A stretch of 44,509 bases of DNA from Escherichia phage JSSK01. Positions 16,844-20,002 of the stretch are shown here, one piece after another. How positions within the stretch are numbered: position 1 is the stretch's first letter; each line of letters starts with the position of its first letter. Location of the stretch: the sequence record OQ442786; one strand, written 5' to 3'. The notes beneath the pieces were generated by a model, which was not told the origin of the DNA, ran no database searches, and saw only the letters and a program-made list of their open reading frames with translations. The translations under genes were made by a program, and so were the position numbers.

Positions 16844-16951
16844 GTAATGTGATAGAATAATTTTGCGCCTAGTGTCGCACACGAAAAGTGGGTGGTTCCC
16901 GTCTGGCGCATTTACCGTTAACCTGAAACCTCTTAACCAAAGGATTAAAGA

Positions 16952-17371
16952 ATGAAACTTTCTGATTTTTATTTCGAAGAGAAAGCACTGGTAGGCAAGA
17001 AGATGCCGATTCTGCTACCAAACGGCGAAGACTCTGGCGAGTGGCTTAATGTTGTAAGCCCGGATGCAGATGCTGCCGTTAAAGCGGGGCGTGCTTTCAT
17101 TATCGCGTACCGTCGCGGGTTGGCGCGTTTTGAAGAACTGGAAAAGGCCGCCAAAGAATCTGGCGACTATACTGAATATAACCTGGCGGTTAACGAACTG
17201 GCGGAAGACCTGAACCGACAACTCGCGGCAGAAGTCGTAAACGGCTGGAGCTTTGACGACGAGCCTTTCTCTAAGGAAGCATTTAACAAATTGCTAGACC
17301 AGTTCAAAGGGCTTGGAACACAAGTAGCGGCGTTTCATAACGCTGAACGTAAAGCATTACAGGAAAAGTAG
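16952..17371 (+). CDS. tail assembly chaperone (G-like)
   Basis: 139-aa acidic ORF immediately upstream of tape measure; AGGA SD. Confidence 0.65.
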   Translation: MKLSDFYFEEKALVGKKMPILLPNGEDSGEWLNVVSPDADAAVKAGRAFIIAYRRGLARFEELEKAAKESGDYTEYNLAVNELAEDLNRQLAAEVVNGWSFDDEPFSKEAFNKLLDQFKGLGTQVAAFHNAERKALQEK

Positions 17372-17736
17372 ACGCGCTGTACAGGTTCGCCACCTATGAG
17401 TTCGTTGATAAGCATAAAATCAGAGAGTTTGATTCTATAGCTGACGGACACGAACAGGCGCTTATCGCGATGGGTGTAATCGATAAGAAAAAACGTGCAG
17501 CGCGACGGGGTGGGCCAGAATGCCCGCCCCTTTTTATATCCACCTTTGAGACGTATTGCGACATTAAGTTTACGCGACACGTGCGCGAGGACGCTGTAGT
17601 ATTGTTTGCAAGAGAATCCGTTACGTGGCAAGACCTGAAAGCCTATCTCGATGTTACGCAAAAACAGCTTAGTCTGTTCGAGATAGACATTATCATGGGC
17701 TTAGAAGCAATCTTTGAAGGTAGAAATCATGGCTGA
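17353..17736 (+). CDS. tail assembly chaperone frameshift extension (GT-like, -1 frame)
   Basis: -1 frame is open from ~17353 to 17736 and overlaps the tape measure start; joins the G frame at AGGAAAAG just before its UAG. Confidence 0.5.
   Translation, partial: SITGKVDALYRFATYEFVDKHKIREFDSIADGHEQALIAMGVIDKKKRAARRGGPECPPLFISTFETYCDIKFTRHVREDAVVLFARESVTWQDLKAYLDVTQKQLSLFEIDIIMGLEAIFEGRNHG
17362..17371 (+). other. putative -1 programmed ribosomal frameshift site (A-GGA-AAA-G then UAG)
   Basis: Lys codon AAG preceded by A-run directly before the stop; analogous to lambda G/GT. Confidence 0.4.
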
Positions 17737-20002
17737 TACCGCTAGCTTGATAGTACGAGTATCATCGACCGGCGTCGATAAAACCACATCACAACTGAAC
17801 GGGCTTACCAAAGCCGCAGGTGCTGCCGCGGCTGCCGTTGTCAGTCTGGAAACCGCAAAACAGGTGTTCAGTGCGCTGGTGGACTCTCAGCGCAACTTCG
17901 ATAAGCTGAACTCCGGCCTCATCACAATGACCGGGAGCGCCGAGAATGCGGCTAAGGCTTTCAGCGTCCTGCAACAGTTCGCAAAAGAGACTCCATACGG
18001 GCTTAACCAGGCGGTTGAGGGCTTCACTAAACTTGTAGCCCTCGGCCTGAACCCCAGCAAAGAGGCGTTAATCTCCTACGGCAATACCGCCGCGGCGATG
18101 GGTAAAGACCTTAATCAGATGATTGAGGCCGTGGCGGACGCCAGTACATTTGAGTTTGAGCGACTGAAAGAGTTTGGTATCAAGTCGTCACAGCAGGCAG
18201 ATACAGTGTCGTTCACGTTCCGCGGCGTTACCACCACGGTTAAAAAGAACTCCGAAGAGATTCAGAAATACCTCCTTAACATCGGCAACACAGATTTCGC
18301 GGGGGCGATGGAGACACGCTCTAAGACGCTAGACGGTCAGTTATCGAGCCTCGCCGACTCCTTCGATGGTCTTGTTCTTGCGGTAGCGCAATCCGGTTTT
18401 GGTGACGCGGTAGGCGAACAAGCGGCAACAGCGGAAGATGCTATTACAGCGCTCACCGACGCTATAGCGTCTAATGAGATAGCCGCCACGCTCCAGGACT
18501 GGACGACACTGTTCAATGAGTCGTTCAAGTTTATTTCTGACGCCTTGAACGACCTGGCATATGACACCGAGGACAAATCCGCGGATATGTCCGACTCGCT
18601 GGGTACTATACCGGATGCTATCCGTGAGTGGCTGCCCGACATCCAGCAGACATTCCACGAGGTTATTGCGTGGTTCCAGCGCATTGACGATTACGCCGTA
18701 GCGTTAGGACAGACCCTTGCCGACGTGTTTGACCCGAGCAAAACTGCAGCGCTCACATTTAAAAACCTGACCGCAGAGGCCGACGCCGCATACGCCGCCA
18801 GCATAAAACGCGCAGAGGCGGAATCACAGGCCATTACAGACAGGTCTAAGCAGCGTAAGAAAGAAATTGAGGAACAGCGCAAGCAGTACGACGAGCGCAA
18901 GAAGCAAGAAATTGACTTAGCCAGCCTTGTTAATAAAAATGGTGGAACTGGCAGCACCGGAAACACCGACGATAAAGCAGCAAAAGCCGCCGCCAAGAAA
19001 GCAGAACAATTGCGGAATCAGGCGCAAGATTACCTCGACACTTTGGCCCGCCAGAACAACGATGAGTTAAAGGCTATCGACGCGCAGGAACAGCAGAAAC
19101 TGGCTAAGGCAAAAGAGTTCTACAGCCAGGGCGCGCTGTCACTGAAAGAATACGAGCAAGCAAAAACGGCTATTGTCCTGGAGGCAGGGCAAAAACGACA
19201 AGATGAACTAGATAAACGCCAGAAAGAAGCCCAGGAAAAGCAACAGAAAGGCGACGACTTCATGGCTCAGATTATGGGTCAGAACGCAACTGAGCTTGAG
19301 CTTCTCGACATCCAGGAACAGCAGAAACTGGCTGTCGCCGATAAGTATCGAGAACAGGGGCTTATTAACGAGGAGCAGTATCAAGCGGCGCTTAACGCTA
19401 TCAATGAGCAATACGCCACAAAACGCGCTGACGCAACGGCAACGGCCTTTGGTAACATGGCCTCAAACATCGGGTCTGCGTTGGGTGAGGCTTCTGGCGC
19501 GTACAAGGCATTCGCTATCGTACAGGCCACCATAGCCACGTACACCGCGGCTATCGAGGCGTACAAGTCCACGGCGGCTATCCCTGTAGTTGGCCCGTTC
19601 CTGGCCCCTGTAGCCGCTGCCGCTGCCGTTGGGGCTGGTATGGCGCAGGTTTCCGCTATCAGGTCCGCGCGTGAGCAGGGCGGTCAGTTATCTGCGGGGC
19701 AGGCTTCCACCATCGCCGAACGCGGTAAACCAGAAGTTATCATGCCGGCTGGCGCATCTCGTGTTCGCACAGCACAGCAGATGAAAGAAATTATGGGGCA
19801 AAACGGGTCTTCTTCCGGCCCGTCTAATGTTACTATCGTAAACAACACGAGTTCTCAAATCGGCAACGTATCCACTGAGCAAGATGATGAAGGCCGTTTG
19901 CGAATCATCATCGAGGAGCAGGTGGCTGCCTCTTTGCAGAACAGCAACAGCAAGATTAGCAAGGCCCGCAAAGCCACAAGAAATGCGCCGGGGTTCAAAT
20001 AA
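17714..20002 (+). CDS. tail tape measure protein
   Basis: 762 aa, longest ORF in tail block; repeated EQQKLA coiled-coil segments; Gly/Ala-rich hydrophobic C-terminal region. Confidence 0.9.
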   Translation: MKVEIMADTASLIVRVSSTGVDKTTSQLNGLTKAAGAAAAAVVSLETAKQVFSALVDSQRNFDKLNSGLITMTGSAENAAKAFSVLQQFAKETPYGLNQAVEGFTKLVALGLNPSKEALISYGNTAAAMGKDLNQMIEAVADASTFEFERLKEFGIKSSQQADTVSFTFRGVTTTVKKNSEEIQKYLLNIGNTDFAGAMETRSKTLDGQLSSLADSFDGLVLAVAQSGFGDAVGEQAATAEDAITALTDAIASNEIAATLQDWTTLFNESFKFISDALNDLAYDTEDKSADMSDSLGTIPDAIREWLPDIQQTFHEVIAWFQRIDDYAVALGQTLADVFDPSKTAALTFKNLTAEADAAYAASIKRAEAESQAITDRSKQRKKEIEEQRKQYDERKKQEIDLASLVNKNGGTGSTGNTDDKAAKAAAKKAEQLRNQAQDYLDTLARQNNDELKAIDAQEQQKLAKAKEFYSQGALSLKEYEQAKTAIVLEAGQKRQDELDKRQKEAQEKQQKGDDFMAQIMGQNATELELLDIQEQQKLAVADKYREQGLINEEQYQAALNAINEQYATKRADATATAFGNMASNIGSALGEASGAYKAFAIVQATIATYTAAIEAYKSTAAIPVVGPFLAPVAAAAAVGAGMAQVSAIRSAREQGGQLSAGQASTIAERGKPEVIMPAGASRVRTAQQMKEIMGQNGSSSGPSNVTIVNNTSSQIGNVSTEQDDEGRLRIIIEEQVAASLQNSNSKISKARKATRNAPGFK

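What the first reader, a model, noticed from the sequence alone, without database searches (positions are those of the whole stretch)
17353..17371. Tail chaperone -1 frameshift at a non-canonical slippery sequence next to the stop codon
The G-like chaperone ORF ends with CAG-GAA-AAG-UAG. The -1 frame is open from ~17353 through 17736 and overlaps the tape measure start, giving the conserved G/GT arrangement. The slip site is A-GGA-AAA-G directly before the stop rather than the lambda-type GGGAAAG, which suggests a stop-codon-assisted single-tRNA slip.
Basis: partly seen in the sequence, partly recalled or inferred. Interest (0 to 1): 0.4.

Follow-up and report, generated by a model that had tools for sequence, protein, structure and literature searches.

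The report
Tail chaperone frameshift beside its stop
This is the usual phage trick of making a second, longer tail-assembly chaperone by a backward ribosome slip, here at a minimal A-AAG site directly before the stop codon; the same fusion is already annotated in the close relative phage K1G, so it is real but ordinary.

Summary
The chaperone ORF (16952-17371) ends CAG GAA AAG TAG. The -1 frame is open from 17353 to 17736 and ends inside the tape-measure start (ATG 17729). The window is a Kagunavirus, a K1G-like E. coli siphophage. The two ORFs match Pfam tail-chaperone families PF08748 and PF23812, and together they cover one PHROG built from fused proteins. In 81 related loci (45 distinct junctions, down to about 45% protein identity) the G ORF always ends A_AAG_TAR. 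The shared shift window can be as short as 10 nt. The -1 frame shows coding-type conservation from the first codon after the junction, and three lineages have no start codon there. A -1 ribosomal slip giving ...ALQEK-VDALYRF... is therefore strongly supported. That exact junction is already in GenBank/RefSeq for K1G (ADA82267.1, YP_009168804.1). I found no experimental proof. No conserved downstream RNA structure or upstream Shine-Dalgarno-like element exists, so the always-adjacent stop is the likely helper. In this lineage G_GAA_AAG also appears selected for two-tRNA re-pairing, so "single-tRNA" is unresolved. Novelty is low. Side finds: a conserved terminator-like hairpin inside T, and an int-alpA-like leader RNA.

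The parts
16952..17371 (+). gpG-like tail assembly chaperone ORF (139 aa), the product of normal 0-frame translation. It ends ...ALQEK followed by TAG.
   Evidence: ORF list. Pfam PF08748 Phage_TAC_4 at 22.4 bits, above the 21.1 cutoff. phrog_15027 and phrog_313 'tail assembly chaperone'. The exact protein is in NCBI as JSSK01_33.
17350..17352 (+). TAA in the -1 frame. It sets the 5' limit of the region where a -1 shift can occur.
   Evidence: Sequence read. Script reports the -1 frame open from 17353.
17362..17368 (+). Shift site G_GAA_AAG. The invariant core is A_AAG at 17365-17368. tRNA-Lys re-pairs from AAG to AAA. tRNA-Glu could re-pair from GAA to GGA, with a G-U pair in the middle position.
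   Evidence: A_AAG is invariant in 45 of 45 distinct contexts. G precedes GAA in all GAA lineages. One relative (RP180) has the lambda-type heptamer G_GGA_AAG.
17369..17371 (+). 0-frame TAG stop immediately 3' of the shift codon. The fourth base is A. Proposed kinetic helper: a slowly decoded A site.
   Evidence: The stop is adjacent in all 81 loci: TAG in 30 contexts, TAA in 15, TGA in 0. Fourth base: A 35, C 9, T 1, G 0. More distant relatives with the canonical T_TTT_TTC heptamer do not have the stop directly adjacent.
17368..17736 (+). T segment read in the -1 frame after the slip (GTA GAC GCG CTG ... TGA; 122 aa). The fusion gpGT is 16952..17368 joined to 17368..17736, 261 aa in total.
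   Evidence: PF23812 Phage_TAC_18, E = 1.1e-18. phrog_15027 positions 137-259. Third-position variation fits only the -1 frame: 31 of 33 third positions vary against 19 of 33 at positions 1 and 2. The fusion aligns seamlessly across the junction. The identical K1G fusion is in NCBI.
17374..17379 (+). GCG CTG, read as Ala-Leu in the -1 frame. Invariant as GCG-YTG including the wobble G of GCG. This is a possible 3' context element, and the constraint is unexplained.
   Evidence: No conserved structure accounts for it.
17729..20002 (+). Tape measure protein gene. Its ATG at 17729 overlaps the T stop (ATGGCTGA).
   Evidence: phrog_1538 'tail length tape measure protein', E = 1.4e-194. K1G annotation has the same 8-nt overlap.

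Best explanation
This is the gpG/gpGT tail-assembly-chaperone pair of a Kagunavirus (Guernseyvirinae).

Most ribosomes translate 16952-17368 and terminate at TAG 17369, giving gpG (139 aa). A minority slip back one nucleotide on A_AAG (17365-17368). The single E. coli tRNA-Lys (anticodon UUU) leaves AAG and re-pairs with AAA. These ribosomes then read GTA GAC GCG CTG... in the -1 frame to TGA 17734, giving the 261-aa fusion gpGT with the junction ...ALQEK-VDALYRF....

By analogy with lambda, the G part binds the tape measure protein and the T part recruits the major tail protein.

Shown here:
- the ORF arrangement;
- homology of both parts to chaperone families;
- the invariant A_AAG_TAR junction;
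- coding-type conservation of the -1 frame from the junction onward;
- the absence of a conserved start codon for T;
- the absence of a conserved RNA structure or upstream Shine-Dalgarno-like stimulator.

Inferred:
- The adjacent stop, in a weak A/C fourth-base context, provides the pause that lets the P-site tRNA-Lys slip while the A site is empty.
- In this lineage the preceding G_GAA lets tRNA-Glu re-pair on GGA, raising efficiency.
- The low G:GT ratio and its role in tail assembly.
For: Gene identity:
- The 0-frame ORF matches PF08748 and phrog_15027 positions 1-138. The -1 frame matches PF23812 and phrog_15027 positions 137-259. A tape measure gene follows.

Existing annotation:
- RefSeq K1G and GenBank fKuEco01 carry a two-piece joined CDS here.
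- The K1G fusion built with the QEK-VDALY junction is found exactly as ADA82267.1 / YP_009168804.1 / QNO11738.1.

Conservation of the site:
- All 81 loci (45 contexts, 15 clusters at 80% identity) end the G ORF with A_AAG_TAR. AAG is only 38% of Lys codons in these genes.
- The preceding codon (GAA, GCA, GGA, GTA or TCA) always ends in A, although GCA is 20%, GTA 27%, TCA 24% and GGA 10% of their codon families.
- In L023, L024, L078 and L079 the -1 frame opens only 10 nt before the end of the stop, so the shift must occur on C_GCA_AAG_TAA.

The -1 frame is translated from the junction:
- Third-codon-position variation fits only the -1 frame.
- Conserved residues (K-V-x-A-L, FDxI..GH) lie before the first ATG.
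- Lineages L031-L033 have no ATG, GTG or TTG in the first 37 codons.

No other stimulator found:
- Downstream folding is no better than shuffled sequence: z = -0.42 over 99 nt and +0.75 over 49 nt.
- The consensus fold gives only 3 pairs with no covariation.
- There is no Rfam frameshift element.
- No upstream block is conserved.

Other support:
- Distant relatives with the canonical T_TTT_TTC heptamer do not have the stop directly adjacent.
- The phage encodes no tRNAs.
- Literature: A_AAG is the most shift-prone tetramer in E. coli but needs a stimulator, about 0.15% alone against 5.6% with a pseudoknot (PMC4066793). A_AAG-type sites are used in IS3, IS1222 and B. subtilis cdd, and 'shifty stop' frameshifting is an established concept (PMC5009743). 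Another phage chaperone slip site lies immediately before its stop (KL1, PMC3483164).
Against: - I found no experimental detection of the fusion protein in this phage group (literature searches).
- The site is not a canonical X_XXY_YYZ heptamer.
- A_AAG alone is barely shifty in reporter assays, so the efficiency here depends on a helper that I only infer.
- The stop is never TGA, the slowest stop in E. coli, which fits a pure 'slow termination' model poorly.
- The conserved YTG eight nucleotides after the stop could in principle be a weak start codon.
Confidence: 0.85

Rival explanations
1. The product is the same, but the mechanism is ordinary two-tRNA (P-site and A-site) tandem slippage on the imperfect heptamer G_GAA_AAG during translocation. 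In this model the stop codon plays no kinetic role. Its adjacency only reflects where gpG has to end.
For: - In every lineage whose penultimate codon is GAA, the preceding base is G. This holds in six different codons (CAG, ATG, GCG, TCG, TTG, CTG), although TCG is only 13% of Ser codons and GCG 37% of Ala codons.
- One relative has mutated to the perfect lambda heptamer G_GGA_AAG.
- Stops are never TGA.
Against: - Six of 15 clusters have N_GCA_AAG and one has G_TCA_AAG. In these the P-site tRNA cannot re-pair, yet the arrangement persists.
- The stop is adjacent in 45 of 45 contexts, while the -1 frame residue overlapping it varies widely (D, E, K, A, T, I) but always begins with a purine, which preserves the stop.
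- Relatives with a strong canonical heptamer have the stop further away.
Confidence: 0.35
2. T is made as a separate protein, either by independent initiation or by termination-reinitiation. The start would be the conserved CTG/TTG at 17377, or the ATG at 17470. There would then be no frameshift and no fusion protein.
For: - Gene callers annotate a separate ORF starting at this CTG (Bas74) or TTG (Shashou), with AGGA taken as the ribosome-binding site.
- The Leu codon is always YTG.
- An ATG at 17470 gives an 88-aa ORF.
Against: - This model does not explain the invariant A_AAG, the exclusive use of AAG over AAA, or the A-ending penultimate codon.
- AGGA is absent in the GCA, GTA and TCA lineages.
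- CTG is a very poor bacterial start codon (general knowledge).
- The ATG equivalent to 17470 is missing in L028-L033, and L031-L033 have no start codon at all in the first 37 codons.
- Protein-level conservation begins right at the junction, including the invariant Ala codon before YTG.
- PHROG 15027 and the K1G records treat it as one fused protein.
- In lambda the T domain works only when fused to G (established knowledge; Xu, Hendrix and Duda).
Confidence: 0.06
3. The frame change is not translational. It could be transcriptional slippage on the A run, a sequencing or assembly error, or a chance overlap of a non-functional ORF.
For: None specific. The A4 run is the only homopolymer in the overlap.
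Against: - Four A residues are far below the run length known to give RNA polymerase slippage (general knowledge).
- The same two-frame arrangement is present in 81 independent loci and 98 GenBank records.
- The -1 ORF has a strong Pfam match and a coding substitution pattern.
Confidence: 0.01

Closest known systems
Phage lambda gpG/gpGT -1 programmed frameshift, and the conserved tail-chaperone frameshift of dsDNA tailed phages (Levin, Hendrix and Casjens 1993; Xu, Hendrix and Duda 2004; reviewed in PMC5009743)
   Same: - Two overlapping ORFs lie just upstream of the tape measure gene.
- The second ORF is in the -1 frame, has no start of its own, and is expressed as a C-terminal extension.
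- The A-site codon is AAG read by tRNA-Lys.
- No strong RNA stimulator is present.
   Different: - Lambda uses the perfect heptamer G_GGA_AAG several codons before the G stop. Here the site is G_GAA_AAG (N_GCA_AAG in sister lineages), and the stop follows immediately.
- The G and T domains belong to other Pfam families (PF08748, PF23812).
- A reverse-strand gene module separates G from the upstream tail genes.
Annotated tail assembly chaperone fusion of Escherichia phage K1G (ORF22A/22B; ADA82267.1, YP_009168804.1) and of fKuEco01 (QNO11738.1)
   Same: The gene, the slip sequence CAGGAAAAGTAG and the junction QEK-VDALY are all the same. The DNA is 95% identical.
   Different: - The window's G has one extra residue (139 aa against 138).
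- The K1G join is an annotation, not an experiment. The closest record (fEg-Eco19) and many other relatives list the two ORFs as separate or hypothetical proteins.
A_AAG tetranucleotide and hexanucleotide -1 sites in bacteria: IS3 (A_AAG plus pseudoknot), IS1222 (G_CGA_AAG), Bacillus subtilis cdd (A_CGA_AAG near the gene end)
   Same: - The minimal Z_ZZN motif A_AAG is decoded by the shift-prone tRNA-Lys(UUU).
[quoted passage not shown]
   Different: The IS elements rely on a 3' pseudoknot or hairpin, and cdd on an upstream Shine-Dalgarno-like sequence. Neither is found or conserved here. The adjacent stop is the only conserved neighbour.
'Shifty stop' frameshifting (Weiss et al. 1987; prfB CUU_UGA +1; +1 at CCC_UGA in Listeria phage structural genes)
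   Same: A stop codon in the A site immediately 3' of a slippery P-site codon, so the shift competes with termination.
   Different: The well-studied cases are +1 shifts, and this one is -1. The stop here is TAG or TAA, never TGA. Dependence on release-factor level is untested.
Burkholderia phage KL1 gp18/gp19 (PMC3483164)
   Same: The predicted chaperone -1 slip site lies immediately upstream of the stop codon of the short form.
   Different: KL1 has a canonical heptamer (GGGAAAC) followed by TGA. The protein family is unrelated.

Membership tests
gpG/gpGT-type tail assembly chaperone with programmed -1 frameshift | Two overlapping ORFs immediately 5' of the tape measure gene, with the second in the -1 frame | tested here: met
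   G is 16952-17371. The -1 frame is open 17353-17736. The tape measure ATG is at 17729.
gpG/gpGT-type tail assembly chaperone with programmed -1 frameshift | Both parts are homologous to known chaperone G and T domains | tested here: met
   PF08748 at 22.4 bits (cutoff 21.1). PF23812 at 67.6 bits (cutoff 27). phrog_15027 is covered end to end by the two frames.
gpG/gpGT-type tail assembly chaperone with programmed -1 frameshift | The downstream frame is translated from the junction and lacks its own conserved start | tested here: met
   Third-position variation is 31/33 against 19/33 in the -1 frame only. L031-L033 have no ATG, GTG or TTG in the first 37 codons.
gpG/gpGT-type tail assembly chaperone with programmed -1 frameshift | Canonical X_XXY_YYZ slippery heptamer in the overlap | tested here: not met
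   The window has G_GAA_AAG and sister lineages have N_GCA_AAG, G_GTA_AAG or G_TCA_AAG. Only RP180 has G_GGA_AAG. Non-canonical sites are accepted in this family (Xu et al. 2004; PRFect motif classes), so this does not exclude membership.
gpG/gpGT-type tail assembly chaperone with programmed -1 frameshift | Chaperone genes directly follow the major tail protein gene | tested here: not met
   A 2.4-kb reverse-strand module (14406-16799) lies between the 390-aa tail protein gene (13205-14377, phrog_290) and G. The K1G neighbourhood also has reverse-strand genes here, but a different set.
gpG/gpGT-type tail assembly chaperone with programmed -1 frameshift | The fusion protein is made at a low fixed ratio and is required for tail assembly | not testable with these tools
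   This needs proteomics, reporter assays and phage genetics. I found no published experiment for this phage group.
A_AAG (Z_ZZN) minimal -1 shift sites of bacteria | A_AAG in the 0-frame phase, decoded in a host with a single tRNA-Lys(UUU) | tested here: met
   The phase is confirmed and the motif is invariant in 45 of 45 contexts. The phage has no tRNA genes. E. coli having one tRNA-Lys is established knowledge (PMC5009743).
A_AAG (Z_ZZN) minimal -1 shift sites of bacteria | A 3' RNA structure or 5' Shine-Dalgarno-like stimulator at the proper spacing | tested here: not met
   Fold z-scores are -0.42 and +0.75. The consensus fold has 3 pairs and no covariation. There is no Rfam hit and no conserved upstream block. 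AGGA lies only 1 nt before the A_AAG core and is absent in the GCA, GTA and TCA lineages. Only the Jersey-like lineage has a candidate hairpin (L020, -17 kcal/mol, z = -1.65).
Shifty-stop frameshifting | A stop codon immediately 3' of the slippery codon, conserved | tested here: met
   TAG or TAA directly follows AAG in all 81 loci. The overlapping -1 codon varies but always begins with a purine.
Shifty-stop frameshifting | Efficiency depends on the stop and on release-factor activity | not testable with these tools
   This needs reporter mutants (stop changed to sense, fourth base changed) and RF1 titration.

The most novel reading that the evidence does not exclude
Across the Guernseyvirinae, the chaperone frameshift signal may be nothing more than A_AAG followed by an RF1-readable stop (TAG or TAA, never TGA) in a weak A/C fourth-base context, plus an invariant GCG-YTG 3' context.

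This would be a structure-free, termination-competition-driven -1 frameshift. Its efficiency, and so the G:GT ratio, would track release-factor activity in the infected cell. The conserved terminator-like hairpin inside the T ORF would add a second, transcriptional control on the ratio of G to GT and tape measure protein.
Probability: 0.35. Interest if true: 0.45.

Novelty: already known. Interest (0 to 1): 0.2.

Why it matters
The practical value is for annotation.
- The closest record (fEg-Eco19) and many of the records listed give the T part as a separate or hypothetical protein.
- One genome paper states that there is no slippery sequence here (PMC6776780).
- The comparative result pins the site to A_AAG_TAR, so the join can be annotated uniformly across the subfamily.

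For mechanism, the family offers a natural series for testing how much a neighbouring stop codon and P-site re-pairing each contribute to -1 frameshifting in E. coli without any RNA structure. The series runs from N_GCA_AAG through G_GAA_AAG to G_GGA_AAG, always with an adjacent stop. This would be a useful model, but it does not change the concept.

Tried and rejected
Checks on the frameshift signal:
- **Downstream stimulator.** Single-sequence folds of 49 and 99 nt and a 9-lineage consensus fold gave nothing conserved. A long-range pairing of GCGCUGU with ACAGGCGC (near 17452) appears in the window's minimum-energy fold but is not conserved. A hairpin exists only in the Jersey-like lineage.
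- **Upstream Shine-Dalgarno-like stimulator.** No conserved block was found. A GGGAAG 10 nt upstream occurs only in the Jersey-like lineage.
- **Rfam scan of 16800-17800.** No frameshift element was found.
- **Other slip sites upstream in the overlap.** Excluded, because the -1 frame opens only at 17353 here, and only 10 nt before the end of the stop in L023/L024.
- **Independent start for T at ATG 17470 or CTG 17377.** Rejected on comparative grounds.
- **Transcriptional slippage and sequencing error.** Rejected: the A run is only 4 long and 81 loci agree.

Searches with limited yield:
- A protein word-index search with the fused query returned only 5 hits and was uninformative.
- Literature searches for an experimental demonstration in Kagunavirus, Guernseyvirinae or Jerseyvirinae found none.
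- The Jerseyvirinae taxonomy paper cited in the Shashou record (PMID 25663216) is not held in the library.
- GCGCTGT first looked invariant as a nucleotide block. Shashou-like phages have GCGTTG, so only GCG-YTG is invariant.

Full report
**1. The observation**

The sequence at 17340-17380 reads aacgctgaacgTAAagcattacaggaaaagTAGacgcgctg.
- The ORF 16952..17371 (139 aa) ends GCA TTA CAG GAA AAG TAG.
- One base back, a TAA at 17350-17352 closes the -1 frame. That frame is then open from 17353 to the TGA at 17734-17736: SITGKVDALYRF...EGRNHG.
- This TGA overlaps the ATG at 17729 of a 757-aa tape measure protein (phrog_1538, E = 1.4e-194).
- A -1 shift can join the two frames only within 17353-17371, and the only slippery run there is GGAAAAG.

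**2. What the genes are**

- The window is a Kagunavirus (Guernseyvirinae, K1G-like E. coli siphophage). It is 98.2% identical over 16900-17800 to fEg-Eco19 and 95% identical to K1G.
- The 0-frame ORF matches Pfam Phage_TAC_4 and PHROG 15027 'tail assembly chaperone' at profile positions 1-138.
- The -1 frame matches Pfam Phage_TAC_18 (E = 1.1e-18) and the same PHROG at positions 137-259, beginning at its 4th codon. That PHROG is therefore built from fused proteins.
- RefSeq K1G (NC_027993) and GenBank fKuEco01 annotate a two-piece joined CDS over exactly this region.
- I built the K1G fusion with the junction QEK-VDALY. It is found letter for letter as ADA82267.1 / YP_009168804.1 / QNO11738.1, 'tail assembly chaperone'.
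- Other records split the region into two genes, starting the second at CTG (Bas74) or TTG (Shashou).
- The Shashou paper says there is 'no canonical slippery sequence' (PMC6776780).

**3. Comparative test**

I collected 81 related loci from IMG/VR and GenBank, down to about 45% G-protein identity. They give 45 distinct 42-nt junction contexts and 15 clusters at 80% identity.

The junction:
- Every G ORF ends A_AAG followed at once by TAG (30 contexts) or TAA (15), never TGA.
- The last codon is always AAG, although AAG is only 38% of Lys codons in these genes.
- The penultimate codon varies (GAA, GCA, GGA, GTA, TCA) but always ends in A, against family frequencies of 10-27% for the four-fold codons.
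- In L023/L024 (the same contigs as L078/L079) the -1 frame opens only 10 nt before the end of the stop (TAA C GCA AAG TAA). The shift there must happen on A_AAG, and tRNA-Ala cannot re-pair on CGC.

The -1 frame downstream of the stop:
- Variable columns pile up at the third position of the -1 frame only: 31 of 33, against 19 of 33 at positions 1 and 2.
- The fused proteins align without a break. Conserved residues (K-V-x-A-L, FDxI..GH) lie before the first ATG.
- The ATG equivalent to 17470 is missing in L028-L033. L031-L033 have no ATG, GTG or TTG in the first 37 codons.

This rules out a conserved independent start. It makes a -1 ribosomal shift at A_AAG the only consistent reading.

**4. 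Stimulators**

- The 49 and 99 nt after the stop fold no better than shuffled sequence (z = +0.75 and -0.42).
- A nine-lineage consensus fold gives three invariant pairs that are explained by the amino acids they encode.
- Rfam has no match at the site.
- No upstream block is conserved.
- Only the Jersey-like lineage has a candidate hairpin 2 nt after the stop (-17 kcal/mol, z = -1.65).
- Reporter data show that A_AAG is the most shift-prone tetramer in E. coli but is nearly silent alone: about 0.15%, against 5.6% with a pseudoknot (PMC4066793).

Something must therefore help, and the only conserved neighbour is the stop codon.
- Its fourth base is A (35 contexts) or C (9), T once and never G. 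From my own knowledge of Poole, Brown and Tate 1995, A and C are the weak termination contexts in E. coli.
- The -1 codon that overlaps the stop encodes D, E, K, A, T or I but always starts with a purine, which keeps the stop.
- More distant relatives (Vibrio Queuovirinae) carry the canonical heptamer T_TTT_TTC, and their stop is one or six codons further on.

**5. Single tRNA or two?**

In all lineages where the penultimate codon is GAA, including this window, the preceding base is G. This holds in six different codons: CAG, ATG, GCG, TCG, TTG and CTG.
- That points to selection for G_GAA_AAG, on which tRNA-Glu can re-pair with GGA using a central G-U pair.
- RP180 has gone one step further, to the lambda heptamer G_GGA_AAG.

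So the invariant core is one tRNA plus the stop. This lineage probably also benefits from a second re-pairing tRNA, in the E/P or the P/A sites. The product is ...ALQEK-VDALY... under every model, so mass spectrometry cannot separate them. Reporter mutants can.

**6. Comparison with known systems, and novelty**

The system works like lambda G/GT and belongs to that class by gene order, homology and frame. Two features depart from the classic pattern:
- The canonical heptamer is absent.
- The chaperone genes do not directly follow the major tail gene. A reverse-strand module intervenes here; K1G also has reverse-strand genes at this position, but a different set.

The shift site belongs with the A_AAG minimal sites of IS3, IS1222 and cdd, but it lacks their RNA or Shine-Dalgarno-like stimulators (PMC5009743). 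The adjacent stop recalls 'shifty stops', which are best known for +1 shifts. A stop-adjacent chaperone slip site has also been predicted in phage KL1 (PMC3483164).

The very same fusion has been in GenBank for K1G, so the feature is already known at the annotation level. What I could not find described is the subfamily-wide invariance of A_AAG_TAR and its lack of any RNA stimulator. I also found no experiment.

**7. Unexplained and incidental observations**

- The hexamer GCG-YTG, starting 5 nt after the AAG, is invariant including the wobble G of GCG. GCG is only 37% of Ala codons in these genes, so this is a nucleotide-level constraint of unknown cause.
- Inside the T ORF, a GC-rich hairpin followed by a T run (17507-17530 plus TTTTTAT, -22.6 kcal/mol) is conserved in many lineages. 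It shows compensatory changes in the outer stem.
- An int-alpA-like RNA motif sits in the leader of G, here and in relatives.

**8. Verdict**

The stop-assist step is plausible but inferred, and the 'single-tRNA' part is unresolved. The feature is an ordinary, already annotated chaperone frameshift with a minimal site, and its interest is low.

Noticed in passing
window 17507-17537 (+): An intrinsic-terminator-like element lies inside the T (-1 frame) coding region: GGGGTGGGC-CAGAAT-GCCCGCCCC followed by TTTTTAT (9 pairs, 8 of them G-C, -22.6 kcal/mol). It encodes ..GGPECPPLF.. and sits about 139 nt after the slip site and about 200 nt before the tape measure ATG. The hairpin plus T run recurs in many Guernseyvirinae lineages, with compensatory changes in the outer stem (for example GC:7/AU:6 and AU:10/GC:4/CG:2; 0 of 500 shuffles reach the covariation score). 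It is lost in some lineages. It may be a partial terminator or a 3'-end stabiliser that sets G mRNA above tape measure mRNA.
   Followed up: partly
window 16862-16929 (+); also L004 1412-1476, L034 1111-1175, L001 1463-1527, L031 1418-1462, L019 1415-1461, L028 1417-1461: The 5' leader of the chaperone/tape-measure operon matches the Rfam int-alpA RNA motif (RF02996). The window scores 27.2 bits, below the gathering score of 35.8. The match recurs at the same position in six relatives (25.7-35.8 bits, one of them at the gathering score). The motif is known from upstream of integrase and alpA genes and has no known function. Here it precedes a tail gene of a lytic phage.
   Followed up: partly
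window 14406-16799 (-): A reverse-strand module interrupts the + strand tail genes, between the 390-aa tail protein gene (13205-14377) and G. It contains a Rha/KilAC antirepressor-like protein (14406-15077), a 76-aa ORF (15197-15427), a metallophosphoesterase / 'DNA repair exonuclease' (15424-16644) and a superinfection-immunity protein (16593-16799). The exonuclease and Imm genes also lie next to G in K1G, Bas74 and fKuEco01, but the K1G neighbourhood shown has no Rha/KilAC gene and has a polynucleotide kinase instead.
   Followed up: partly
window 17374-17379 (+): GCG-YTG (Ala-Leu in the -1 frame) is invariant at the nucleotide level, including the wobble G, across all 45 junction contexts. 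Neighbouring third positions are saturated with changes. No structure explains this. It is also the codon that gene callers pick as a start for a separate T ORF.
   Followed up: partly
L035 (Vibrio phage 1.207.B), L037 (Vibrio phage ALK), L036 (Serratia phage Tlacuache): Distant homologues of the same G protein (27-33% identity) also have an unannotated -1 frame T ORF running into the tape measure start. The two Vibrio phages carry the canonical T_TTT_TTC heptamer. Tlacuache has a C_CGA_AAG hexamer like those of cdd and IS1222. None of these records annotates a frameshift.
   Followed up: partly
L020 1918-1966 (Jersey-like Salmonella phage lineage): The lineage with C_GCA_AAG_TAA cannot re-pair its P-site tRNA. 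It has a lineage-specific candidate hairpin starting 2 nt after the stop (GCGCUGUGUG...CACGGCAGCGC, -17 kcal/mol, z = -1.65). This may compensate as a 3' stimulator.
   Followed up: no
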